IMG/VR virus record: IMGVR_UViG_3300031718_000009
Location: 1-63,967 of that record
Length of the DNA stretch: 63,967 nucleotides
Strand: one strand, 5' to 3'
Source of the DNA: a virus
Taxonomy: Duplodnaviria > Caudoviricetes
Below the pieces are notes generated by a model. That model searched no databases and was not told where the DNA came from. It saw only the letters and a list, made by a program, of their open reading frames with translations. The position numbers and the translations under genes are program-made. How positions within the stretch are numbered: position 1 is the stretch's first letter; the number at the start of each line of letters is the position of its first letter. This document shows positions 1,227 to 63,129 of the stretch, one piece after another.

Positions 1227-1445
1227 ATGACCAAATTCCCCAAGCACATCTCTAACGGCATGAGCGCCAATGCCGGGGGCCCGGTACTGGCCCTCACTGC
1301 CAATAACCAAATCGTATCATACGGATACGATGACCCAATCAATCCTGATGCGGCGTTGAGGCGCGCCGCCAGAGACGGAATGACCGCGATTGCCACGTAT
1401 GCCAACACAGGCACGTTGCACCGCGTAGTGGAGATAAACCAATGA
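1227..1445 (+). CDS. Hypothetical protein, 72 aa
   Basis: RBS GGAG; ATGA-coupled to the next gene. Confidence 0.6.
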   Translation: MTKFPKHISNGMSANAGGPVLALTANNQIVSYGYDDPINPDAALRRAARDGMTAIATYANTGTLHRVVEINQ

Positions 1446-1765
1446 AAGCAATCATCAACGGACTACGCTACGACACCGAGAAGGCGGTCCTGATCGGCGA
1501 GGCGAGCACGCCGTTCACTCGCTTGAGTGGAGACTTTACCCATTGGGAAGCTGGCCTTTACCGCACGCCTCGATCCGGTCGCTATTTCCTGGCCGGTCGC
1601 GGAGGCCCAATGACGCGATTTGCCCATAGCGCAGGACAAAATGAAACGCGCGGCGGCTCTCGCATCTTTCCTATGGACGACGCCGAGGCGCTTGCATGGG
1701 CCGAGGAATATCTGACAACCGACGAAATTGAACGCGGCTTTGCCGCAAAACTAGAGGACGCATGA
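1442..1765 (+). CDS. Phage hypothetical protein (IINGLRYDTEKA...LYRTPRSGRYFL type)
   Basis: ORF track; ATGA coupling at both ends. Confidence 0.75.
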   Translation: MKAIINGLRYDTEKAVLIGEASTPFTRLSGDFTHWEAGLYRTPRSGRYFLAGRGGPMTRFAHSAGQNETRGGSRIFPMDDAEALAWAEEYLTTDEIERGFAAKLEDA

Positions 1766-2010
1766 AAATGCTCACACGCACACTTTTAATCGCGGCCGCG
1801 CTTGTAGCCTCGGCTACATTCGCCACGGCCCAAACCTACCAGAGCCTCGGCAACGGCGTGGTCATCGGCAGCGACGGATCGATGGCCCAGCCGCTCGGCA
1901 ACGGTGTAATCATCACGCAAACACCGCCGTTCCCGCAGTATGGTCAACCGCTACAGCCACAGCGCCAGGTCTACTGCCAGCCGCTGGGGTACACGGTCGT
2001 CTGCAACTGA
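1762..2010 (+). CDS. Small secreted protein with an internal Q-x-LGNG repeat
   Basis: Signal peptide MKMLTRTLLIAAALVASATFATA; C-terminal Cys pair. Confidence 0.7.
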   Translation: MKMLTRTLLIAAALVASATFATAQTYQSLGNGVVIGSDGSMAQPLGNGVIITQTPPFPQYGQPLQPQRQVYCQPLGYTVVCN

Positions 2011-2588: not shown

Positions 2589-2617
2589 ATCCCATTTATT
2601 TTATGTGAAATAACGTG

Positions 2618-2760
2618 TCCGCCTCGGCTCATGGCTCAGTTCGGGTACAACGGATGCGCATGATTGAGCCGGCTGGCGCGTATGAACCGAGGCGAAACTT
2701 GACGAGAGTGTGCCCTAGCGGGCGCGAGGATGCGGGGACCATTTTCCACCTCTTGTCAAG
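2618..2760 (-). promoter_or_regulatory. Late-operon leader/promoter region with nested inverted repeats
   Basis: Stems 2618-2632/2682-2696 and 2633-2640/2663-2670; inverted repeat 2698-2708/2750-2760 containing TTGAC in each arm. Confidence 0.5.
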
Positions 2761-2811
2761 CGGTTGGCACAACTATTTTGTGGGCAACTCAAAATAACCG
2801 CCATATTCGCG

Positions 2812-3327
2812 CTAATAGAGGCCGATCTGTGTGGCACGGAGGGGCTGTGGATGGCACACTTCCCAGACAAGAACCCCGCGCGCATTGAGGGACGCCGCCA
2901 CGATGCAGAGCGCCTTTTCGCGTTTGCGGAAAAACGTCCGCGGAGCCCAAAGCTTATCCGCACAAAGCCGCTTAATCGATCGACCTTGCGAGACACGTAG
3001 CGCCCAAAGACCTGTGACAAGCGCCATACCAGGGTCCTCTCGCCGAAGTTCGCTTAACCACTCGAACGCAGCTTCCATGTGCTTAATCTCCTCTCCGCTC
3101 GGCTGCGGCCGGCGCCCACGGTTTGCCGCCTCCTCGCGCATCTTGCGTTCGATCGGATCAATCCCAAGTTGATCACCCCACTCCGTCATCGTCGTTGGCC
3201 AATTTCCGCCAGGCGCGCGAGGACCGGCAGCCACAGGCATCATGGCCAGCGTGACGAACGCTTGAACGATTGCCTGCCCTACGCGCTCCGCATCCCACAT
3301 TTGCACAGCCTCAATGGTTGTCGCCAT
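2812..3327 (-). CDS. DUF6362-like putative late-gene regulator (Q-analogous position)
   Basis: W....V...AF.TL..MP, P..EI..ME....WL and a C-terminal HTH-like segment; directly upstream of the late leader. Confidence 0.6.
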   Translation of the reverse strand: MATTIEAVQMWDAERVGQAIVQAFVTLAMMPVAAGPRAPGGNWPTTMTEWGDQLGIDPIERKMREEAANRGRRPQPSGEEIKHMEAAFEWLSELRREDPGMALVTGLWALRVSQGRSIKRLCADKLWAPRTFFRKREKALCIVAASLNARGVLVWEVCHPQPLRATQIGLY

Positions 3328-3460
3328 CGTCCGATAAACCCAATTTTCTAAAAACCTCCCTAAGCGCATACCTCCATCCGCATTGAAGACCGGTCTCAAA
3401 CCCTGTCCAAAAACAAATGCAGCAAAAAATATACAGATCGATCCAGAACATCATCAGCAT
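3311..3460 (-). CDS. Small hydrophobic protein
   Basis: TGATG-coupled start; hydrophobic, Cys-rich N-terminus. Confidence 0.45.
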   Translation of the reverse strand: MLMMFWIDLYIFCCICFWTGFETGLQCGWRYALREVFRKLGLSDDGDNH

Positions 3461-3783
3461 CACCCATTGAGCCTGATGTCTCCAGGGTTTGCCACAAGCA
3501 GACCGGCCCGCTGTGCCTGGTACGCCGACTCTGCCTCTCGGCTCGGTGCGTTGGTCCATTGGATCAATCGCGTGTTGAGCATGATCGAGGTGCCGCTAAG
3601 GCACGGCGAGTCGCGCAAAAAGTTTCTAAACAGAATTGTTTTTGGCGGCGCGATTTGCAGAAAACACGGGTATTCGAATTTGATAAAAAACCCAAGTGGC
3701 GTGTCGGTGGTATCCCACGTCGTCTCGCCGATCAGGTCGATACCGCCAACCATCGTGAGGATGACCAGTTGTTTGGGTTTCAT
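3460..3783 (-). CDS. Hypothetical protein
   Basis: ORF track; coupled to both neighbours. Confidence 0.65.
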   Translation of the reverse strand: MKPKQLVILTMVGGIDLIGETTWDTTDTPLGFFIKFEYPCFLQIAPPKTILFRNFLRDSPCLSGTSIMLNTRLIQWTNAPSREAESAYQAQRAGLLVANPGDIRLNG

Positions 3784-4019
3784 TCCGCAATCTCCGGTAT
3801 GCCTGCACCGAGCTTCGCGCGCAGTTCTGGGGATAACGGCGGGAGGGGTTTGTCCCGGTACTTGGCGGCGAGAGCGGCTTCAATGTCGCGATCCGCTTCG
3901 GCATAAAGTTCGTCTCGATTTTTGTGCAACACCTTCTCGAAATCTCTACCGAGAGGTTGCATGCTGTTTGCCAATTCGCGGATTAGCGTGCTTACTGGTG
4001 CTCGATCGTTGGTTGTCAT
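3780..4019 (-). CDS. Hypothetical protein
   Basis: ORF track; ATGA-coupled. Confidence 0.65.
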   Translation of the reverse strand: MTTNDRAPVSTLIRELANSMQPLGRDFEKVLHKNRDELYAEADRDIEAALAAKYRDKPLPPLSPELRAKLGAGIPEIAE

Positions 4020-14639: not shown

Positions 14640-14968
14640 ACCGCGACGAACGCGACTGGACAACCCCAACCCTTACCGAAGTCCGCTCGCTTCGCCCGGC
14701 CGATCTCGCCAAGCGCTGGCAGTGCTCTGACCGCCACGTCCGCAACCTCGTGCGCGCAATGATCTTGCCAAGTTTCCGCGTCGGGGGCAAGCTGATACGA
14801 ATTCCTCTGGACGCCGTCGAGGCTTACGAGGGGCTAGCGCAAAGATGCAACCAAAGTTTCGGGCAGTCCTCTATCGCGGGCACTACTACGCCGCCTGGCG
14901 GGAAAACGGAACCATCCGCCGCAAAGCGCTTCGTACCCGCGATCGTGAGTGCGCCGAGCAAACGCTGA
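14636..14968 (+). CDS. xis: Excisionase (HTH_17/MerR-like)
   Basis: LRPADLAKRWQCSDRHVRNL...LPSFRVGGKLIRIP; GTG start with GGAG RBS; overlaps the integrase gene. Confidence 0.8.
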   Translation: MNRDERDWTTPTLTEVRSLRPADLAKRWQCSDRHVRNLVRAMILPSFRVGGKLIRIPLDAVEAYEGLAQRCNQSFGQSSIAGTTTPPGGKTEPSAAKRFVPAIVSAPSKR

Positions 14969-15882
14969 AATCTTTCGCCGAGCAGTACGAGATCGCCAAC
15001 CGGCCGCAGGTCATTACCGTGGAGTTTGTCTGGAATGGATACCGTGAAACGCTCGCTGGTCGTCCTGCCGGCAAAACAATGGAATTTGAGGCGCGAGCGC
15101 TGCTTCCATTCCTTGGCTCAATTCCTGCCGGCTCTATCACAGAGAGAGATTGCCGGGATTATCATGAGCGCAGAAAAGCTTCAGGACGCAAAGACGGAAC
15201 AATCTGGACAGAGCTCGGGCGACTGCGATCGGCGCTGAAATGGGCGGAAAGAAAAAACCTGATCGTCAAGGCCCCGGCGATTTATCGGCCGCCAGCGTCC
15301 CCGCCGCGGGATTTGCGCTTGACGCGGGAACAAGCTTCCAAGTTCATGTCCTCATGCGTGATGCCGCACGTCAGACTCTTCGTCATTCTCGCCATGACGA
15401 CCGGCGCGAGAGCTGGAGCCCTCCTCGGGTTGACGTGGGATCGCATCGACTTCGATGGGAAATTGATCGATTTAGCCGATCCGGCGCGCCCGAGGACTAA
15501 GAAAGGCCGGCCAATGGTGCCAATGAACCGCACGGCCGCCGCCGCCCTCCAGGAAGCCCGCGCGGGGGCGCTGACGCCCTTCGTGATCGAATGGGATGGG
15601 AAGCCGGTGCAGAGTGTGAAGAAGGCCCTAGCGGCCGCCGGGAAGCGCTGCGGGCTGCCTTGGGTGAGCGCGCATGTGTTCCGGCATTCCGCGGCGAGCT
15701 GGATGGCCGAGGCGGGGGTGAGCATGGACAGGATCGCGGCGTTTCTCGGCCATACCGACAGCCGGATTACCTCCCGCGTCTATGCTAAGTTTTCGCCCGA
15801 TTATCTGCGCGATGCGGCCGAGGCGCTGGAGATCGATCTATTGAAGGACGGCATTCGTGCTCCGCACAGAAACATTCGATGA
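14845..15882 (+). CDS. int: Tyrosine recombinase/integrase
   Basis: TGAR, HVFRH, LGH and VY catalytic motifs. Confidence 0.95.
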   Translation: MQPKFRAVLYRGHYYAAWRENGTIRRKALRTRDRECAEQTLKSFAEQYEIANRPQVITVEFVWNGYRETLAGRPAGKTMEFEARALLPFLGSIPAGSITERDCRDYHERRKASGRKDGTIWTELGRLRSALKWAERKNLIVKAPAIYRPPASPPRDLRLTREQASKFMSSCVMPHVRLFVILAMTTGARAGALLGLTWDRIDFDGKLIDLADPARPRTKKGRPMVPMNRTAAAALQEARAGALTPFVIEWDGKPVQSVKKALAAAGKRCGLPWVSAHVFRHSAASWMAEAGVSMDRIAAFLGHTDSRITSRVYAKFSPDYLRDAAEALEIDLLKDGIRAPHRNIR

Positions 15883-45760: not shown

Positions 45761-46195
45761 CTACGTCGCGCTGTCCCACATCACGATCTTCGCGTTCGCC
45801 GCGTCGGGGTGCGCAATGCCGAATCCGCCCAAGTAATACCAAGCGACGCCGCGACTTCTTCCGTAGTCGTCCGGGATTTTGGCGCGTATCTCCTCGGGGA
45901 GCGCAATAGCTTCGGTCACTGTGTCGGCGCCGAATAGGAATGCCCAACTAGACTGTCCGTTCGCCCATGGGTCGGATACTTGCGCGTACGGATCGAATAG
46001 CACGGAAGCATCGGAACCGCCAGCCGGGATGAACGTCTGTTCAATAAAGCGGGTGTTTTCGTAACGGCCGATCTCGCCGGAGAAGATTTCGGCGATACCA
46101 AGGACCGTATACTGCTTGATGCCTTCGAGGGTGTTCTTGAACGGCCGGTAGGTCGTCGGCCGCGAGATCATCATATAGTCGTCGTCTTTGAAAGG
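45761..46195 (-). CDS. Major capsid protein, exon 2 (144 aa)
   Basis: PFKDDDYMMISRP...GEIGRYEN.RF.E...DYGR..GVAWYY; N4-gp56-like MCP C-terminal half. Confidence 0.9.
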   Translation of the reverse strand, partial: PFKDDDYMMISRPTTYRPFKNTLEGIKQYTVLGIAEIFSGEIGRYENTRFIEQTFIPAGGSDASVLFDPYAQVSDPWANGQSSWAFLFGADTVTEAIALPEEIRAKIPDDYGRSRGVAWYYLGGFGIAHPDAANAKIVMWDSAT

Positions 46196-46989
46196 CTTAG
46201 TGTTCGCTCTGGTTCGCTACACCAGAACCGCCATTTGGCCGCTGCAACTTTCATTGCAGAACAGACTATATCTTGCTCCGTTATCCACAGAGACTGAGCG
46301 CTTCGGGCCGCTTGGCCCTACTCCCTTACGGGATAGTCGTTGAACGTTATCGAAGGATATGAAAGAGTGTAACCGTATCCCCCTTTCATGCGGTGAAACA
46401 TGAGACGACAACATCACTTCGCCACCCCAATGACGCCCTTTAGCGACATCGAAGCGGCTTACATCGCTGGAGTAATTGATAGCGATGGATGCATCCATTT
46501 CGAAAGAGCACGCCGTAAGAACGGCGGCTTCCGCTACAGGATCATCGTTGCCGTCGATATGTGCGATCTGCCTACTATGGAGCACATTTCCAAAACCACT
46601 GGAGGGCGTCTCGTCACAAAACGCTCTCTGCGCGGGTCGCTAACCAAACGACCATTCATTTATCGTCTCACTTGGCGGAACGGCCCTGCCGAAGATTTTC
46701 TTCGGAGGATTCTTCCGTTCCTGCACAACAAGAAACGGCAGGCAGAGCTTGGTATTGAATTCCAAAACCAAGTTGCAAAGCCCCTTGGAGTGAAATTCAC
46801 TGCTGATGATTTCACCATTTGCGAGCGCTTCTATTTAGAAATGAAAGCGCTCAACAATCCTTCCGATCTTCGCTGCTGATTGCCCAATCCTGCCAGTTTT
46901 CAAACCGTCGCGTTTATCCTCGCGGATTCCGCTGTGGTTGGCAGGCTCTAAGGGGTTTCCAGACAATTCACTCAGTGTACCCAAACTTT
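46196..46989 (-). ncRNA. Group I self-splicing intron, 794 nt, in the major capsid gene
   Basis: 5' exon ends in U with a P1 U-G pair (UACCU/GGGUA). Core elements P AAUUGUCUGGAAA, Q AAUCAGCAG, R GUUCAACGACUA and S AAGAUAUAGUCU are present, with a terminal G. Splicing restores the frame. Confidence 0.93.
46400..46879 (+). CDS. Single-motif LAGLIDADG homing endonuclease, antisense within the intron
   Basis: AAYIAGVIDSDGCI...ILPFL..KK.QA...F. Confidence 0.9.
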   Translation: MRRQHHFATPMTPFSDIEAAYIAGVIDSDGCIHFERARRKNGGFRYRIIVAVDMCDLPTMEHISKTTGGRLVTKRSLRGSLTKRPFIYRLTWRNGPAEDFLRRILPFLHNKKRQAELGIEFQNQVAKPLGVKFTADDFTICERFYLEMKALNNPSDLRC

Positions 46990-47547
46990 AGGTATGTTTT
47001 GCTCCTTCATATAGTCCGAAAGAGCTTTGATATGCCCTGTATTCAAGCCAACGTTGTTGGTGATCGCTGTTGAGCCGGTCGTTGAGACCGTTACTGACGT
47101 GAGGGACGTTCCGCCGGTCGGTGCAGCTCGAAGCGGGGTCTGCTTGAACTGCAAGAAGGCGACGATGTCGAAGAATTTCCTGGCGTCGTTCTTCAGCGTC
47201 TGATTGATGATCGCCATGATGTCGTGTTTGGCGAGGTCCATCAGCTTGCCGGTGAAGGGAACGGAGATACCGGCTTCGGTGATCGTCAGCGTCCGCTGAA
47301 GGATCGTAAAGCCGCCTTCCGGCATGGCTTGGCGCTCGTCGAGCTGGCGCCCTTGAGTGCCAATATTCGTATAAACGTTCCAGTGAAAGAGATCACCGCG
47401 GTTTAGACCTTTCTGTTCTCCGTCTGGAGCGTCGCAAAACTGTCTAAACTTGGTTAGCGGTTGAGTAACGGTCCGCATATAGTCGGAAAGTTCGTCCGAA
47501 TACGCGAAGCCGCCCTCGCTTGAGACCGTCCAGATTTGTCCGGCCAT
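46990..47547 (-). CDS. Major capsid protein, exon 1 (186 aa; spliced product 330 aa)
   Basis: KFRQFCD, G..FHWN, TITEAG.SVPFT; follows the scaffold gene. Confidence 0.9.
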
Positions 47548-51375: not shown

Positions 51376-54039
51376 TTATGCCGCTGGTGCCATCTCAGGC
51401 GCAGGGTTCTGTGTGGGCATCATGCCCGGATTCTGCGTTGGCTGATTTGCGCCGCCGGCCGTTCCGCTGCTCGCGTTGCCCATGGTATTGCCAAAGAGCT
51501 TCGCAAGGTCTGAATTTTGCGCTGTACGCGCCTGGTGCGCATGGTCCTGCGCCTGCGAATGCAGCTTGTGGACATGATCGGCGGCTTGCTTGCCGCGGTC
51601 ATGCCCCATCGAGACAACGTTCTTGGCGAGCTCCGCGCGCGCGCGCATTTTCTCAAGCTCGATTTTCGCAGCGTCCTGGCGGTCCTTTTGGGCGATTGCG
51701 GCCATTTTCGTCTGGTTATCTTGCTGATTCTTCTGCGCGGCGATCATGTTGGCCTGGCGCTTTACGTCCTGCTCGGCCATCATCGCCTGCGCCTTCGGGT
51801 CCGGCGCCTGCCCTTGTGCCCCGCCGAGATCGACAAAGAAGCGGTCGCCGCCGTCGCGGAAGCCAGCCGCGCCGAATACCGTGTTGATGATTTCCTCGAC
51901 GTTTGGAGTTGGCGGCTTGATCACGCCGGCCGCGACGAATGGCTCAAGCACCCCCCCAATCGTTTGCGCGGCCATTTGGAATTTCTGCAGCCGCTGCATC
52001 GGCAAATTCGCAGCACCAACCCCAACTTTGATCGTGAGGCTCGTTTCCGCCGTAAGCAGGTTGTCGGTTATCTCAGACATTCCAAATCTCTGAAATAACC
52101 GCGCCTTCTCGCCAGCAATCGCCAAAACAGTCTCGTCGCTCTCGTAATACTCTTCCAGGTGCATGACCTGGTTGAGGACCGGCGCGACCCATGTCTCGGT
52201 TTCGACCGATAGATCGAACTCGGACGTTGACGACGCATCGCCGGCGAGCAGGTTCATCCCGCCGACCGTCTCATTGAGCTGCCGGTTTGTCTGGACGGTT
52301 CCCATGTTCATGACGCCGGCCAGGCTGTCGAAGTCGCTATTGAGCTGGGCATCCTGTTGCGCCGCGGATTGCGGGATATCCGGGATTTGCGCCCATTCGA
52401 CATCACCCGGATTGGTGATCATGATGATGCGATCGGCGCCGCGCTTCTGGATCGCCTTGAGATCGACATCCGCACCACGTTTGACCACGGCGGGCGGAGA
52501 GACACACTGCTTCAAGTGATCAAGCCGAAGGTTGACTTGATCGTTCAATTCGAGCTGGAGCGGCTGCCAGGACTCGACCGGCGACATGGGGTAGGGGCGG
52601 AACGCCTCGATTGCCCCAAGGCCAATAACGATCGGCCGCGCGCCGCCCTGTTCCGGGTAGGCGTCAGCGGTTAAGACAGGATCGGACAGCATCCGCGTGA
52701 TGCCGAGGGTCCAAAACGTGTAATCCGCCCCGCCGATTCGCATGTACCATTCGTAAAGCCAGACCCTTCCGAACGTACCGCTGACCATCATCATCGGGTC
52801 TGTGCCCTCGTTACGGGCTACCCGGCTTGCGATGCTGTCCGAGGGGCCGGACGTCGGCGAGACGGCTGATCTGAACACCTCGATCGGCGTATCGACGAAC
52901 GGAATTTTTTTACTCTGGCCTTGCGAGCGCGAGACGAGCAGCCATGCGTCGTCAGCGCTCATCGGATGCGCGATGCGAAGGTACTGCGCGGATTGGGCCG
53001 GGTCCGTCCAGTCGCAATTCGGATCGAAGATTACGTTCTCCGGCGGGAAAAGCTGAATGTCCGGCCGGTCCTCGATGACCCGTGTCTTTTGCGGCTCCTC
53101 CGGCTCGAACGGAGGCGATTGGATCGACGCCTGCAATTGTCCTGGCGGATTGGGCGGTGGCGCGGGCTGCGCAGGAGGAGCACCGCCGAGCGGCGCTCCT
53201 CCTGGCCCAGGAGGGCCGCCTGGCGCTGGTTGCGCCCCCCCTGGAACTTGAGACCCTGGAGCCGGCGGGGGAGCGCCTGCACCAGCCCCGGACGGTGATA
53301 TGGTTGCCGGCGGCGGCGGCGGCGCTCCCCCTGGCATCCCGCCTCCTCCTAGCCCCATGGATGACGGCCCTGGCGGCGGAATGCTTTGGGACAAAGCGAA
53401 ACTTTGTTCGTTTTTGCGCTCATTCTCACCGCGGGCGTCGGTTTTCTCCTCCTTGAAAATCCACGACTGCTTTGAGACGCAGAGCCCGGTGATCTGCATC
53501 GTCTGGACGGCGCCGGATGCGGTCAGGAACCATTTGATCCCGTTGCGTTTGGTCTCGCGGGCCAGGCGATAATTTAGCAGCTCTTGCTTGAGTGCCGCGC
53601 TTGCGGCCTGTACCTGATCAGCCTCGTTCTCGGGAGTGATCGAAACCACATCACCAGTCGAAAACAGCGCCGTCGCGGCTGCCTGCATCTTCTTACGAAC
53701 CGCGTCGCGCGTCTTCGGGCGAAATGTCTTCGACCGCCCGGAAAAACGCGAATGAAGATATTTCGAGCCCTCAAAATGCTGCGAGCGATAGGCCCGATAA
53801 TTTCTGGCCCAAAACGAACGAACTGCCGTCTGGAAGAACGTGGCACCTTGGCTCTCCGCTTCTTGGGCAAGTCTCAATATCTGGCCGGGGCGAAACGCTT
53901 CCTCTTCCAAGAGCACGCGCGGATCGTCACTCTCGGAAGCTGTCGGGCCTCCCGAAGTTCCACCTTGCGCGCCACGAAAGCCAGGGGTTGATTGGTCACT
54001 GCCATCAACCGGAAAGTTCCCGGCTAGCGTTGGGATCAT
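51376..54039 (-). CDS. Portal protein (P22-like) with a Pro/Gly-rich insertion
   Basis: RSKTFRPKTR, EN.IFDP, QLELN..VN.RLD, ETVGGMNLL and a Q-rich C-terminus; size and position. Confidence 0.88.
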   Translation of the reverse strand: MIPTLAGNFPVDGSDQSTPGFRGAQGGTSGGPTASESDDPRVLLEEEAFRPGQILRLAQEAESQGATFFQTAVRSFWARNYRAYRSQHFEGSKYLHSRFSGRSKTFRPKTRDAVRKKMQAAATALFSTGDVVSITPENEADQVQAASAALKQELLNYRLARETKRNGIKWFLTASGAVQTMQITGLCVSKQSWIFKEEKTDARGENERKNEQSFALSQSIPPPGPSSMGLGGGGMPGGAPPPPPATISPSGAGAGAPPPAPGSQVPGGAQPAPGGPPGPGGAPLGGAPPAQPAPPPNPPGQLQASIQSPPFEPEEPQKTRVIEDRPDIQLFPPENVIFDPNCDWTDPAQSAQYLRIAHPMSADDAWLLVSRSQGQSKKIPFVDTPIEVFRSAVSPTSGPSDSIASRVARNEGTDPMMMVSGTFGRVWLYEWYMRIGGADYTFWTLGITRMLSDPVLTADAYPEQGGARPIVIGLGAIEAFRPYPMSPVESWQPLQLELNDQVNLRLDHLKQCVSPPAVVKRGADVDLKAIQKRGADRIIMITNPGDVEWAQIPDIPQSAAQQDAQLNSDFDSLAGVMNMGTVQTNRQLNETVGGMNLLAGDASSTSEFDLSVETETWVAPVLNQVMHLEEYYESDETVLAIAGEKARLFQRFGMSEITDNLLTAETSLTIKVGVGAANLPMQRLQKFQMAAQTIGGVLEPFVAAGVIKPPTPNVEEIINTVFGAAGFRDGGDRFFVDLGGAQGQAPDPKAQAMMAEQDVKRQANMIAAQKNQQDNQTKMAAIAQKDRQDAAKIELEKMRARAELAKNVVSMGHDRGKQAADHVHKLHSQAQDHAHQARTAQNSDLAKLFGNTMGNASSGTAGGANQPTQNPGMMPTQNPAPEMAPAA

Positions 54040-61392: not shown

Positions 61393-63129
61393 TTAGGCGT
61401 CCTCGAATATGAATTCGTTGATATCGTCGGCGATCTTCTGCTCGTCGAGATCGGGCGCAACCGGCTGCATGTCGTAGAACCGCGACGTCGCGTCCGCCAA
61501 ATCGTCATGCGGGGCGAACTTGAAATAGAGCAATTCGTCGATCAGCATCCGCGTCAAATCGTAAGGCTCGCCATCAGCGTCCTTGCGGCGCAATCCGCGA
61601 ACGAGGTAGCTGTCGCGGCCTGCGTCCTTCGCGTCACGCATCGCGCGTGACGGGCCTTTCATCGGGATCGTTACAACGTGGTTACGTGCGCCGTCACCTG
61701 ATCGCCCGTCTGCCGAGGCCATGTGCCAGTAACAATCACCGAGCCCCTTAACGGATATGAGAGCAGGAAAATAAAATCGTCCGTCGCGGATGTCCGGTTC
61801 CAGGCGCTCGATGCGCGACCACTTCGAATGCTCTCCCTCTCGCGGCCATGCAATCTCTTCGATGGCGAAGACCTCTCCGCTTCGCTGCATTTCGAGCTGG
61901 AAATATTCGAGATCGGCCTGCATTCCATATCGTTCGTATCCGACCTTTACGAGCTTGACGCCGGGCGCCGACTTCCACTTGCGCCGAAGTCTTTTCAGAC
62001 GATCCCAGCGCTCGGTCAGCGACATTCGATGGCAGTAGCCGTCGAGGAAATACCTCGAGCCGCCCTTATCAACGCCAACGACAGCAATCGCGGTATTGTC
62101 GCTCGATCTCGTCCGGCCGGCTGATGGGTCCGCCATGATGTAGACGTTAAGCACCGCCGGGCGAACTTCCCAGCGGCTCTCAAACCATTCCGGCTTGAAC
62201 ACCTGCTCGCTCCCGGCGAGCGGGTTTTGCAGCATTTGGGCCGAGAACGTCGAGCGCTGCGTTCGAAGCTTTTCCTTCCATCGCTCGCCGCTCATCATGA
62301 CCGGATTGCCGGTTGGCGTTCCGTCATCGCTGCCCGGATAAATCCGAGGCTTTAAAATGTTCCGTTCGAGGATTTGCCCGTATGTGTCACCAAAGGAATA
62401 CCGCGTGCCCACGTGCTGCTTGCGCACGTCGCCAGCGCCGAGGTTGTCCGAAAGCTCCCACGCCTCCATGGCCTTCTTGACCATCTCGGGGTTTCGCACC
62501 GTCTCGACAGTCACGACATCATCGTATTTGAGGATCGTATAGTGGCCGCCTGTCGGCATTCCGTCGATGAGGCCCCACGCCTCGATCGTCGCCTCTTTTG
62601 GGTTCGATTGACGCTTCAACACGAGCCCGTCGAGGCCCCATCGCGGAGCTTCGATCTTCGGATTTGCCCAGATTACGTCAGCGTAAGCCCACCGCAAAAG
62701 CGCGTTGGTTTCGAACTCCTGCTTGATCTGATGCAGAAATTTACGCGCGGCCTTTTGCGTGCAAGAGAAGATCGCGACCGTCTGCTCGGGATCGCTCACC
62801 ACGTCCTGGATCGTGCCGGCCCAGGTGATGAGCGTTGATTTGTAGTGCTCTCGTGCCCAGAGGTCGAGATAGCCGTCCGGCGCGGCCTCGACTTCGCGGC
62901 ACCGATCATAGACCCACGGATGGATCATATCGCGCCGGCCAAGGATGCAAACGCATAGAAAAAAGCGATCGAGACAACCTAGAAGCGCGTAATCGGTCGG
63001 GCGAAGCTTGCCAGAGCCTACCAGGTTCTCGTAGCTCGCCATCGCGGTTTGCATGTCTGCGTAGGCAAGTGTCGCGGCGAGATCGACGAGCTGGCGATTA
63101 GCCGCGTCGATGTAGCGCTCGCCCTTCAT
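61393..63129 (-). CDS. terL: Terminase large subunit
   Basis: WAREHYKST (Walker A-like), YDDVV (Walker B), VGTRY, MADPS, DNTA and HDDLADA nuclease motifs. Confidence 0.92.
   Translation of the reverse strand: MKGERYIDAANRQLVDLAATLAYADMQTAMASYENLVGSGKLRPTDYALLGCLDRFFLCVCILGRRDMIHPWVYDRCREVEAAPDGYLDLWAREHYKSTLITWAGTIQDVVSDPEQTVAIFSCTQKAARKFLHQIKQEFETNALLRWAYADVIWANPKIEAPRWGLDGLVLKRQSNPKEATIEAWGLIDGMPTGGHYTILKYDDVVTVETVRNPEMVKKAMEAWELSDNLGAGDVRKQHVGTRYSFGDTYGQILERNILKPRIYPGSDDGTPTGNPVMMSGERWKEKLRTQRSTFSAQMLQNPLAGSEQVFKPEWFESRWEVRPAVLNVYIMADPSAGRTRSSDNTAIAVVGVDKGGSRYFLDGYCHRMSLTERWDRLKRLRRKWKSAPGVKLVKVGYERYGMQADLEYFQLEMQRSGEVFAIEEIAWPREGEHSKWSRIERLEPDIRDGRFYFPALISVKGLGDCYWHMASADGRSGDGARNHVVTIPMKGPSRAMRDAKDAGRDSYLVRGLRRKDADGEPYDLTRMLIDELLYFKFAPHDDLADATSRFYDMQPVAPDLDEQKIADDINEFIFEDA

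What the first reader, a model, noticed from the sequence alone, without database searches (positions are those of the whole stretch)
46400..46879. LAGLIDADG homing endonuclease encoded antisense to its intron, ending inside the ribozyme core
The ORF is on the + strand, inserted between the Q and R elements. Its last codons and TGA are the complement of the Q element (AAUCAGCAGCGAAG). Known phage intron endonucleases are mostly GIY-YIG or HNH and usually sense-oriented. It needs its own transcript, which would be antisense to the MCP mRNA and could affect splicing or decouple homing from late expression.
Basis: partly seen in the sequence, partly recalled or inferred. Interest (0 to 1): 0.75.

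Follow-up and report, generated by a model that had tools for sequence, protein, structure and literature searches.

The report
Backwards homing endonuclease in capsid intron
A self-splicing intron in a soil phage's capsid gene carries its DNA-cutting "homing" gene on the opposite strand, an arrangement that is real, is kept in related phages, and has one published phage precedent.

Summary
The window is a complete 63,967-bp temperate phage genome. Its major capsid gene on the minus strand is split by a 794-nt group I intron (46196..46989). A 159-codon plus-strand ORF (46400..46879) lies in the intron's P6 loop. It encodes a single-motif LAGLIDADG endonuclease of the I-CreI/I-MsoI type. Its Cys codon and TGA stop are the complement of the six P4' nucleotides UCAGCA.

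A sibling phage (L002) has the uninterrupted allele, which fixes the splice junction at NIP|PF.

Four diverged relatives (L003, L006, L007, L008) carry the same intron, at or within 9 nt of the same capsid site, with the endonuclease gene again antisense in P6. Their capsid exons are 48-66% identical to the window's and their endonucleases 32-56% identical. Helices of the ribozyme covary, and the ORF is under purifying selection (pN 0.32, pS 0.77).

The layout is not unprecedented. Mycobacteriophage LittleE's spliced capsid intron has a bottom-strand LAGLIDADG gene (Pope 2013), and nuclear rDNA introns have expressed antisense His-Cys genes. I therefore call it a new member of a known kind, with new anatomy: P6 position, stop codon inside P4', and a conserved family.

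Expression, promoter, cleavage and any antisense effect on capsid mRNA remain untested.

The parts
46990..47547 (-). Major capsid protein exon 1 (186 codons, ends ...KEQNIP; last base is the U before the 5' splice site)
   Evidence: ORF list. PHROG major head protein hits. 97% identical to L002 capsid residues 59-186. Lengths and frame.
46196..46989 (-). Group I intron, 794 nt, with P7.1/P7.2 hairpins (subgroup IA-like). It begins AAAG and ends ...CUAAG.
   Evidence: RF00028 at 33.2 bits, E 2.4e-6, full model. It is the only group I hit in the window. Boundaries come from the U/G rule and the intronless L002 allele. Helix coordinates. Covariation. GC is 0.47-0.54 against 0.56-0.65 in the flanks.
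45761..46195 (-). Major capsid protein exon 2 (144 codons plus stop; begins PFKDDDY)
   Evidence: 50.7% identical to Vibrio phage capsid genes. 51-66% identical to L003 and L006-L008.
46400..46879 (+). Single-motif LAGLIDADG homing endonuclease gene, 159 aa, antisense to the intron, inside the P6 loop. The motif is YIAGVIDSDG with the acidic residue D27.
   Evidence: D27 is invariant in 41 aligned relatives. pN 0.32 and pS 0.77 against the L003 copy. The N-terminal HHFATP is shared with P0002, which supports the 46400 start. In the homodimer model the interface runs through residues 16-30.
46874..46879 (-). P4 3' strand (UCAGCA), part of the classical Q element. Its complement is the Cys codon TGC plus the stop TGA of the endonuclease gene.
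   Evidence: cmscan alignment. Coordinates. Columns 150-156 are invariant and paired in 5 of 5 family members, including G-U pairs that exist only on this strand.
46959..46965 (-). P4 5' strand (UGuCUGG)
46978..46982 (-). Internal guide sequence GGGUA. It pairs with the exon-1 end UACCU (P1), with U-G at the splice site.
   Evidence: Read from the sequence. This is an inference from the group I P1 rule.
46969..46976 (-). P3 5' strand ACUGAGUG. It contains the stop codon (46972..46974) that ends the exon-1 reading frame five codons into the intron.
   Evidence: It pairs with 46293..46300.
46334..46345 (-). R element GUUCAACGACUA (P6 3' side and P7 5' strand), 54 nt before the endonuclease start codon on the other strand
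46264..46272 (-). S element GAUAUAGUC (P7 3' strand)
   Evidence: Invariant in 5 of 5 members.
46293..46300 (-). P3 3' strand CGCUCAGU
46305..46333 (-). P7.1 (UCCC-GUAA-GGGA) and P7.2 (GGGCC-AAGC-GGCCC) hairpins
   Evidence: Compensatory changes occur in P7.2.
46209..46259 (-). P9 (GAAA tetraloop hairpin) and the P9a/P9.2 hairpins before the 3' splice site
   Evidence: Compensatory changes occur in most pairs.
46391..46395 (+). GGTGA, a Shine-Dalgarno-like motif ending 4 nt before the ATG. L003 has GGTGA before its ATG in the same place.
   Evidence: Read from the sequence. This is an inference.

Best explanation
This is a mobile group I intron of the phage type (P7.1/P7.2, IA-like) in the major capsid gene of a temperate soil phage.

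Inferred from structure and family: the ribozyme, on the capsid-gene strand, removes itself from the late capsid mRNA and joins NIP to PF. Ribosomes entering from exon 1 stop five codons into the intron, at P3.

Shown: the P6 loop holds, in inverted orientation, the gene of an I-CreI-type LAGLIDADG endonuclease. Its coding frame runs into the catalytic core, so that TGC-TGA is the complement of P4'.

Inferred:
- The enzyme works as a homodimer.
- It is made from a plus-strand transcript of its own, with a GGTGA ribosome-binding site.
- It cuts intronless capsid alleles of co-infecting relatives near the NIP|PF codons.
- Break repair then copies the intron and neighbouring exon bases into them.

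Inferred: the inverted orientation keeps ribosomes that translate the endonuclease off the folding ribozyme. It also frees endonuclease expression from the very strong late capsid transcription.

Shown: the unit of ribozyme plus antisense gene is old and stable. It is found intact in five capsid genes that have diverged to about 50-65% identity.
For: Ribozyme:
- RF00028 matches over the full model.
- The homologue L007 reaches 51.5 bits, above the gathering score; L006 reaches 38.7 and L008 37.2, all on the strand opposite the ORF and spanning it.
- RNAalifold on five members gives 27 pairs in the 5' half, 11 with compensatory changes, and 27 pairs in the 3' half, 16 with compensatory changes.
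- P4 is invariant and has G-U pairs possible only on the minus strand.

Splice junction:
- There is a U before and a G at the end of the intron, and the joined frame is open for 330 aa.
- L002 has the uninterrupted allele.

Endonuclease:
- Sequence and fold matches to I-CreI, I-MsoI and I-CvuI.
- D27, G24, G30 and K111 are invariant in 41 relatives.
- Against the 56%-identical L003 copy, 105 non-synonymous changes fall on 330 sites and 79 synonymous changes on 102 sites. Synonymous sites are therefore saturated while the protein is kept.
- Only the plus frame 0 is open in both copies.

Homodimer:
- The model scores 0.77; the best of 3 controls scores 0.00.
- The mark was reached by 20 of 30 proteins solved as pairs of one chain and by 1 of 23 solved as single chains.
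- The runs agree in at least 75% of contacts, and the partner's pLDDT is at least 80.
- I-CreI-type dimers are solved, so the pass may come from memory of those structures.

Family:
- L003, L006, L007 and L008 are homologous capsid genes. Exon 1 is 48-64% identical and exon 2 51-66% identical.
- Each has the intron on the capsid strand and the LAGLIDADG ORF opposite, in P6.
- In the window, L003, L007 and L008 the ORF ends ...RC-stop on CGCTGCTGA.
- Of the 48 single-domain proteins among the best 150 profile hits, 7 end in RC, and P0011 reads the same DNA in another frame.

Homing trace:
- Against L002, 8 mismatches lie between -15 and +3 of the insertion site.
- The background is 0-4 mismatches per 30 nt for about 350 nt upstream and 1-3 per 30 nt for about 180 nt downstream, rising to 4-8 per 30 nt near the gene's 3' end.
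- The intron's GC content is lower than that of its flanks.

Precedent that such a layout works: the LittleE capsid intron splices efficiently with a bottom-strand LAGLIDADG ORF.
Against: - No plus-strand promoter was found upstream of the ORF. The sigma-70 scan gave one site, downstream of the ORF, against 1.4 expected. A relaxed scan gave only 8-of-12 matches.
- All neighbouring genes for about 40 kb are on the minus strand.
- The window's ribozyme and the Pfam LAGLIDADG match are both below their curated cut-offs.
- The intronless site has no significant two-fold symmetry of the kind homodimeric LAGLIDADG enzymes usually recognise. The best match is 7 of 11, and 667 of 2000 shuffles reach this or better.
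- The splice sites of family members are not identical. L006 is 9 nt upstream and L003 probably 4 nt upstream. Simple homing does not predict this.
- Splicing, transcription, translation and cleavage were not observed.
Confidence: 0.7

Rival explanations
1. The endonuclease is mainly a weapon or exclusion factor made by the prophage, or early in infection, rather than a purely selfish homing gene. Being antisense to the silent late operon, it could be expressed like a moron from the lysogen. It would then cut the capsid gene of incoming intronless relatives, with homing as a by-product.
For: - The phage encodes a tyrosine integrase on the same (plus) strand, 14845..15882 (phrog_1, E 8.5e-56).
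- The only published phage parallel, LittleE, is also temperate (abstract seen).
- An intron endonuclease that mediates competition between co-infecting phages is in print (search listing and abstract only).
- The sibling phage L002 differs at 8 positions around the site, as expected if alleles escape cutting.
Against: No promoter was found and no expression data exist. Whether the relatives L003 and L006-L008 are temperate was not checked. Ordinary homing explains the same data.
Confidence: 0.15
2. The ORF is a silent passenger. It would be a formerly free-standing endonuclease gene that landed backwards in P6, is no longer expressed, and persists only because the intron does.
For: No promoter was detected. 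The ORF is the only plus-strand gene in a roughly 40-kb minus-strand block. Cultured-phage relatives of the protein are free-standing and co-oriented with their neighbours: CcrRogue, StenR_269 and cyanophage PP.
Against: - The frame is intact in 5 of 5 family members, although synonymous sites are saturated.
- The catalytic Asp and the fold are kept.
- SD-like motifs lie before the ATG in the window and in L003.
- A silent ORF would have decayed.
Confidence: 0.08
3. The protein's selected role is that of a maturase that helps the ribozyme fold. Alternatively, its antisense RNA tunes capsid mRNA splicing or levels.
For: [quoted passage not shown] A plus-strand transcript would be complementary to about 480 nt of the unspliced capsid pre-mRNA.
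Against: No data support it. The catalytic residue is conserved, which maturase-only proteins often lose (recalled). Duplex formation with the most abundant late mRNA would more likely be a cost than a function.
Confidence: 0.07

Closest known systems
Mycobacteriophage LittleE major capsid gene intron with gene 14 (Pope et al. 2013, PMC3706429; record JF937101)
   Same: It is a phage of a temperate group. A group I intron in the major capsid gene has been shown to splice. A LAGLIDADG ORF lies on the opposite strand inside the intron.
   Different: - In LittleE the ribozyme core is compact (L005 1059..1262) and the ORF lies after P9 (1265..1798). Here the ORF lies in P6 and overlaps P4'.
- The proteins are barely alike: 26% identity over 50 residues. 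They fall in different Pfam models, LAGLIDADG_3 and LAGLIDADG_1.
- The capsid genes are unrelated and the hosts differ.
- No conserved family was described for LittleE.
Nuclear rDNA group I introns with antisense His-Cys box endonuclease genes (Didymium Dir.S956-2/I-DirII; Dsq.L2066/I-DsqI)
   Same: The endonuclease gene is inverted relative to the ribozyme and its host gene and is expressed from its own promoter on the other strand. The question of antisense interference is raised explicitly.
   Different: They are eukaryotic and depend on Pol II, with spliceosomal introns and polyadenylation. The enzymes are His-Cys box proteins and the insertions lie in P9/P9.2. The host gene is rRNA, so there is no coupling to translation.
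I-CreI, I-MsoI, I-CvuI (homodimeric LAGLIDADG enzymes of chloroplast 23S rDNA group I introns)
   Same: They have the same single-motif size class and fold, with TM 0.68-0.73. The sequences are similar. A homodimer through the LAGLIDADG helix is predicted.
   Different: Identity is only about 18-24%. Those genes are sense-oriented in organelle rRNA introns (recalled). The target here is a phage protein-coding gene, and no clear palindromic site was seen.
Phage T4 td/nrdB/sunY-type introns with sense-oriented endonuclease genes
   Same: They are phage group I introns of the IA type with an endonuclease ORF looped out of the core, and they home by double-strand-break repair with co-conversion of flanking exon (review passages; subgroup recalled).
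   Different: The T4 enzymes are GIY-YIG or HNH and are encoded on the intron's own strand.
The sense-oriented LAGLIDADG intron in the same capsid gene of the sibling phage L002
   Same: It has the same host gene, a LAGLIDADG ORF placed in P6 just after the Q element, and a weak RF00028 match.
   Different: It lies at a different site (after FHWNV), is sense-oriented, has an unrelated LAGLIDADG_3 protein, and its ORF runs into P7' at its 3' end.

Membership tests
Group I intron (Rfam RF00028) | Match to the covariance model at the curated gathering score | tested here: not met
   The window scores 33.2 bits against a gathering score of 50, with E 2.4e-6 over the full model 1-253. The homologous intron in L007 scores 51.5 bits. 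The long ORF insertion costs score.
Group I intron (Rfam RF00028) | Conserved core helices (P3-P9) kept by compensatory changes | tested here: met
   In five family members, 11 of 27 pairs in the 5' half and 16 of 27 pairs in the 3' half show changes on both sides. P4 and P7.1 are invariant. P3 and P7 were read by eye only.
Group I intron (Rfam RF00028) | U at the end of the 5' exon paired with G of an internal guide; G as the last intron base | tested here: met
   In the window...CCU|AAAG... pairs with GGGUA, and the intron ends ...CUAAG|. The same rule holds in L006, L007 and L008.
Group I intron (Rfam RF00028) | Removal restores an intact host gene that matches intronless homologues | tested here: met
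   The joined exons give 330 aa without a stop. L002 reads through the site uninterrupted.
Group I intron (Rfam RF00028) | Self-splicing with guanosine | not testable with these tools
   No RNA contig or read crossed the junction.
LAGLIDADG homing endonuclease, homodimeric I-CreI type | LAGLIDADG helix with the conserved acidic residue | tested here: met
   YIAGVIDSDG aligns with LAGFVDGDG of I-CreI-derived chains. D27 is invariant in 41 relatives.
LAGLIDADG homing endonuclease, homodimeric I-CreI type | Alpha-beta-beta-alpha-beta-beta-alpha fold | tested here: met
   The model has pLDDT 91.8 with elements H-E-E-H-E-E-H. Foldseek gives I-MsoI, I-CreI and I-CvuI at probability 1.00 and TM 0.68-0.73.
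LAGLIDADG homing endonuclease, homodimeric I-CreI type | Pfam LAGLIDADG_1 at the gathering score | tested here: not met
   18.7 bits against 23.1, E 0.0033. PHROG 5046 matches at 7.4e-21 but is labelled 'HNH endonuclease'.
LAGLIDADG homing endonuclease, homodimeric I-CreI type | Dimer through the LAGLIDADG helices | tested here: met
   The model scores 0.77 against a best control of 0.00. The mark was reached by 20 of 30 solved pairs of one chain and by 1 of 23 single chains. The runs agree in at least 75% of contacts and the partner's pLDDT is at least 80. The interface is residues 16-30. The pass may come from memory of solved I-CreI dimers.
LAGLIDADG homing endonuclease, homodimeric I-CreI type | Site-specific cleavage of the intronless allele | not testable with these tools
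   This needs a cleavage assay. No significant palindrome was found at the site.
Group I introns with antisense endonuclease genes (LittleE; Didymium rDNA introns) | Endonuclease ORF inside the intron on the strand opposite the ribozyme | tested here: met
   The ribozyme is on the minus strand and the ORF on the plus strand. The same holds in L003 and L006-L008.
Group I introns with antisense endonuclease genes (LittleE; Didymium rDNA introns) | ORF placed in the peripheral P9 region, outside the core | tested here: not met
   Here the ORF is in P6 and overlaps P4'. In LittleE it lies after P9. In Dsq.L2066 it lies in P9.2.
Group I introns with antisense endonuclease genes (LittleE; Didymium rDNA introns) | Expression from its own promoter on the opposite strand | tested here: inconclusive
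   No sigma-70-like site lies upstream. The host and its promoter type are unknown.

The most novel reading that the evidence does not exclude
The inverted orientation may be the point of the design, not an accident. In this conserved family of temperate-phage capsid introns, the endonuclease would be transcribed when the late operon is silent, from the prophage or early in infection. Sense and antisense RNAs would then never meet. The enzyme would lie in wait to cut the capsid gene of incoming intronless relatives, acting as a homing drive and a superinfection weapon at once. The ribozyme core itself supplies the gene's Cys-stop ending, which locks the two partners together.
Probability: 0.18. 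Interest if true: 0.65.

Novelty: new member of a known kind. Interest (0 to 1): 0.42.

Why it matters
Homing endonuclease genes in bacterial and phage group I introns are treated as sense-oriented passengers whose expression is tied to the host gene. The one phage exception in print was a passing remark.

This work shows a family of at least five diverged phage capsid introns that keep the gene inverted in P6, with its stop codon written on the complement of the P4 helix. The arrangement is therefore stable and selected, not a one-off.

The family offers a bacterial system for asking how an antisense endonuclease gene inside the most heavily transcribed late gene is expressed without harming it. 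That question has so far been studied only in slime-mould rDNA.

The family also adds small I-CreI-type enzymes with new protein-coding targets.

Tried and rejected
- **Rfam at gathering threshold.** It found nothing in the window. The intron appears only with E-value thresholds.
- **NCBIfam.** It gave nothing useful.
- **Single-protein and first alignment scans for relatives.** They found nothing in viral contigs or genome contigs.
- **Promoters.**
  - The sigma-70 scan found no plus-strand site upstream of the ORF.
  - I considered the complement of the R element (TTGAAC) as a -35 box with a -10-like hexamer 17 nt on. This is seen in L003 and only weakly in the window. I dropped it because in L008 the start codon lies too close to the R element to leave room.
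  - The complement of the S element as a -10 box has no usable -35 partner. This was read by eye.
  - No repeated motif links the ORF's upstream region to other places in the genome.
- **Target symmetry.** The best 22-bp pseudo-palindrome at the intronless site matches 7 of 11, and 667 of 2000 shuffles do as well or better. It is not evidence.
- **Public runs.**
  - Three runs held parts of the stretch. X1 may be the source sample. X2 holds a 508-nt identical piece of exon 1.
  - The only RNA-library record, in X3, is a 151-nt contig on 45708..45858, at the 3' end of the capsid gene. It may be DNA carry-over.
  - Nothing covered the intron or the ORF in X2 or X3, and no spliced joint was seen. 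This says nothing about expression or splicing either way.
- **tmRNA 3' exon.** My attempt to find it behind the opposite-strand ORFs in the Bacillaceae loci failed. That side observation stays open.
- **Regex screen.** The screen of 160 loci for R, S and Q motifs is crude, because the Q pattern gives many chance hits. I used it only to choose 20 loci for Rfam. The strand counts among those 20 are therefore biased and are not a frequency.
- **First AlphaFold run.** With 4 sequences it was poor, at pLDDT 67.7, and it was replaced.
- **Literature.** Six full-text searches found no other phage or bacterial case of an antisense intron endonuclease besides LittleE. The library lacks most subscription journals, and supplements were closed. 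The supplements of Pope 2013 and of the tmRNA database paper may list orientations that I could not see.
- **The search of earlier findings.** It was closed.
Full report
**What the window is.** The window is a whole virus record of 63,967 bp with direct terminal repeats, rated 100% complete. The structural genes run on the minus strand: terminase large subunit at 61393..63129, portal at 51376..54039 and further virion proteins. A tyrosine integrase lies on the plus strand at 14845..15882, so the phage is temperate. The public runs that hold the DNA are labelled soil metagenomes.

**The observation.**
- Two minus-strand ORFs, 46972..47547 and 45761..46174, both match PHROG major head protein families.
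- They are separated by about 800 nt that hold one plus-strand ORF, 46400..46879, of 159 aa.
- Rfam's default threshold finds no RNA family. With E-value thresholds, RF00028 (group I intron) matches 46242..47030 on the minus strand over the whole model. The score is 33.2 bits. E is 2.4e-6 locally and 1.1e-4 for the whole window, where it is the only such match.
- The alignment shows 518 extra nucleotides between ...AAUCAGCAGCGAAG (Q; P5', P4', P6) and ...GUUCAACGACUA (R; P6', P7). The ORF therefore occupies the P6 loop on the other strand.
- The last plus-strand codons CGC TGC TGA (46871..46879) are the complement of GCG + UCAGCA. UCAGCA is the 3' strand of P4.

**Splice sites.**
- Exon 1 ends ...AAC AUA CCU (NIP), with the U at 46990.
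- The first 12 intron bases contain GGGUA, which can pair with UACCU to form P1 with a U-G pair at the splice site.
- The exon-1 frame stops five codons into the intron, inside P3.
- The intron ends ...CUAAG at 46196, and exon 2 starts CCU UUC (PF).
- The joined frame is 330 codons plus a stop.
- A related 62-kb phage contig, L002, has a capsid protein 97% identical over residues 59-186 and reads straight through ...KEANIPPFKDDDYMMISRP.... The intronless allele therefore exists in nature and the junction is as proposed.
- Against L002, 8 mismatches cluster between -15 and +3 of the site. The background is 0-4 mismatches per 30 nt for about 350 nt upstream and 1-3 per 30 nt for about 180 nt downstream, rising to 4-8 near the gene's 3' end. 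This fits co-conversion during homing or escape of the L002 allele; I cannot tell which.
- The intron is also poorer in G+C, at 0.47-0.54, than its flanks at 0.56-0.65.

**The protein.**
- Pfam LAGLIDADG_1 is below its cut-off, at 18.7 against 23.1 bits.
- PHROG 5046 matches at 7e-21 but carries the misleading label 'HNH endonuclease'.
- Against PDB sequences the best hits are I-CreI derivatives, I-MsoI and I-CvuI, at 8e-7 to 7e-4. YIAGVIDSDG aligns with LAGFVDGDG.
- A profile search of 1.84 billion representatives gave 9869 hits at E <= 1e-3 but only 5 at E <= 1e-30. This is a small clade of a very large superfamily.
- With 41 aligned relatives the AlphaFold model reaches pLDDT 91.8 and has the alpha-beta-beta-alpha-beta-beta-alpha order.
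- Foldseek returns I-MsoI, I-CreI and I-CvuI at probability 1.00 and TM 0.68-0.73.
- D27, G24, G30 and K111 are invariant in the 41 sequences.
- A two-copy model passes its controls, with a score of 0.77 against a best control of 0.00. The mark was reached by 20 of 30 proteins solved as pairs of one chain and by 1 of 23 solved as single chains. The runs agree in at least 75% of contacts and the partner's pLDDT is at least 80. The interface runs through residues 16-30, the LAGLIDADG helix. Since I-CreI dimers are solved, this shows likeness rather than independent proof.

**Relatives of the whole unit.**
- The word-index protein search found only P0002 (67% identical) and P0003 (55%) as close relatives.
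- A metagenome contig, L003, carries a 146-aa homologue (56%) on the plus strand. A homologous capsid exon 2 (66% identical) and the same ribozyme lie on the minus strand.
- A wider alignment scan of IMG/VR gave 80 loci.
- The three best, L006, L007 and L008, have endonucleases 38, 32 and 41% identical. All are homologous capsid genes: exon 1 is 64, 50 and 48% identical and exon 2 is 65, 51 and 57% identical.
- In each of the three, RF00028 lies on the strand opposite the ORF and spans it, at 38.7, 51.5 and 37.2 bits.
- All four diverged relatives that could be examined therefore share the antisense-in-P6 layout.
- In the window, L003, L007 and L008 the ORF ends ...RC-stop on CGCTGCTGA. In L006 it stops 13 nt earlier.
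- Of the 48 single-domain proteins among the best 150 profile hits, 7 end in RC, and one more (P0011) reads the same DNA in another frame. This suggests that the overlap is common in the clade, but I could not see their DNA.
- A covariance model built from the five 5' halves found only two further places in 162 loci: a second site in L008, and L087.

**The ribozyme and the ORF are both under selection.**
- RNAalifold on the five 5' halves predicts P4, P5 and the P5 extension: 27 pairs, 11 with compensatory changes.
- On the 3' halves it predicts P7.1, P7.2, P9 and two further hairpins: 27 pairs, 16 with compensatory changes.
- P4 is invariant and includes U-G and G-U pairs that would be mismatches on the plus strand.
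- Between the window and L003, the endonuclease genes differ at 77% of synonymous sites and 32% of non-synonymous sites. Only the plus frame 0 is open in both.

**Expression.** This is the weak point.
- The ORF is the only plus-strand gene within about 40 kb of minus-strand genes.
- A GGTGA lies just before the ATG in the window, and likewise in L003.
- The N-terminal HHFATP is shared with P0002, which supports the 46400 start.
- No sigma-70-like promoter was found, and the host is unknown.
- A transcript of the ORF's own is therefore inferred from the conservation of the ORF. It has not been shown.

**Comparison with what is known.**
[quoted passage not shown] It does not use the words antisense, opposite or orientation (passages and term counts).
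- Pope et al. 2013 showed, by RT-PCR and N-terminal sequencing, that the capsid gene of mycobacteriophage LittleE has a spliced intron. [quoted passage not shown]
- In the LittleE record the ribozyme core lies at L005 1059..1262 (+). Gene 14 lies at 1265..1798 (-), after P9. It matches LAGLIDADG_3 and is barely similar to the protein here.
- Nuclear rDNA introns of Didymium carry antisense His-Cys genes that are expressed from Pol II promoters and cut their sites (passages seen).
- Relatives of the present protein in cultured phages (CcrRogue, StenR_269, cyanophage PP) are free-standing and co-oriented with their neighbours.
- The general kind, a group I intron with an antisense homing endonuclease gene, is therefore known, including one case in a phage capsid gene.
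- What is new here is the position in P6, the coding overlap with P4', the I-CreI-like clade, and the demonstration of a conserved family.

**Verdict.**
- The feature is real and correctly described.
- Most likely it is a mobile IA-like intron whose homodimeric LAGLIDADG enzyme is made from the opposite strand (confidence 0.7 for the whole statement; about 0.95 for the anatomy).
- It is a new member of a known kind, of moderate interest (0.42).
- The boldest reading not excluded is expression from the prophage as a combined homing drive and superinfection weapon, with the orientation serving to separate the two transcripts in time. I give it about 0.18.

Noticed in passing
L002 3129..3164: The sibling phage's capsid gene has a 36-nt in-frame insert between ...TKFR and QFCD.... 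It starts with TAA and holds an AGGA-like motif and an ATG. It could be a split gene, a scar of a lost element or a translational bypass. The window lacks it.
   Followed up: no
L002 about 3232..3999: The same capsid gene in L002 has another insertion after FHWNV. It has a weak group I match (17.4 bits, E 0.083) and a sense-oriented 189-aa LAGLIDADG_3 ORF (3350..3919). The ORF starts just after the Q element and ends in the S element. The window is uninterrupted at that site.
   Followed up: partly
L008 2602..3242: L008 has, besides the antisense unit, a second hit of the family model (3126..3242, minus strand, 24.4 bits). It lies beside a sense-oriented LAGLIDADG ORF (2602..3183, minus strand) further upstream in the same capsid gene. 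One gene therefore holds two introns with opposite endonuclease orientations.
   Followed up: partly
L003, L006, L007, L008 splice junctions: The insertion point is not identical in the family. The window, L007 and L008 split NIP|P. L006 splits KER|NIPPY, 9 nt upstream, with a matching guide sequence. L003 probably splits 4 nt upstream. The 3' ends of the window, L007 and L008 introns carry a degenerate copy of the last exon-1 bases (AAYAY...).
   Followed up: partly
L089, L096, L100, L103, L128, L133, L134, L160, L164: In nine Bacillaceae and Clostridium genomes a related LAGLIDADG ORF lies on the strand opposite a tmRNA gene. In L100 and L128 it also lies opposite a group I intron match that abuts the tmRNA 3' end. 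The tmRNA database paper reports LAGLIDADG genes in tmRNA introns but, in the passages seen, not their orientation.
   Followed up: partly
L087 1477..2029: A Saccharibacteria MAG contig has a 147-aa relative on the plus strand. It is followed at once by a minus-strand hit of the family's 5'-half model (29.6 bits, E 2.7e-4), and an R element lies before its start. The interrupted gene was not identified.
   Followed up: partly
L138 1131..2604: An Omnitrophota MAG contig has a distant homologue of this capsid gene on the plus strand in two pieces. A plus-strand LAGLIDADG ORF (1477..1977) lies between them, which would be a third insertion site in this capsid family.
   Followed up: no
window 14845..15882 (+): This is a tyrosine integrase (phrog_1, E 8.5e-56), so the phage is temperate. 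It lies on the same strand as the endonuclease gene.
   Followed up: partly
PHROG phrog_5046: The family that matches the endonuclease at 7.4e-21 is labelled 'HNH endonuclease', although its members here are LAGLIDADG proteins. Several GenBank and RefSeq phage records repeat the label.
   Followed up: no
window 46298..46345, run X1 record 2: A different 12.4-kb contig of the probable source sample matches the R/P7.1 part of the intron, with 6 differences in 48 nt. Another group I intron of this type is therefore present in the same sample.
   Followed up: no
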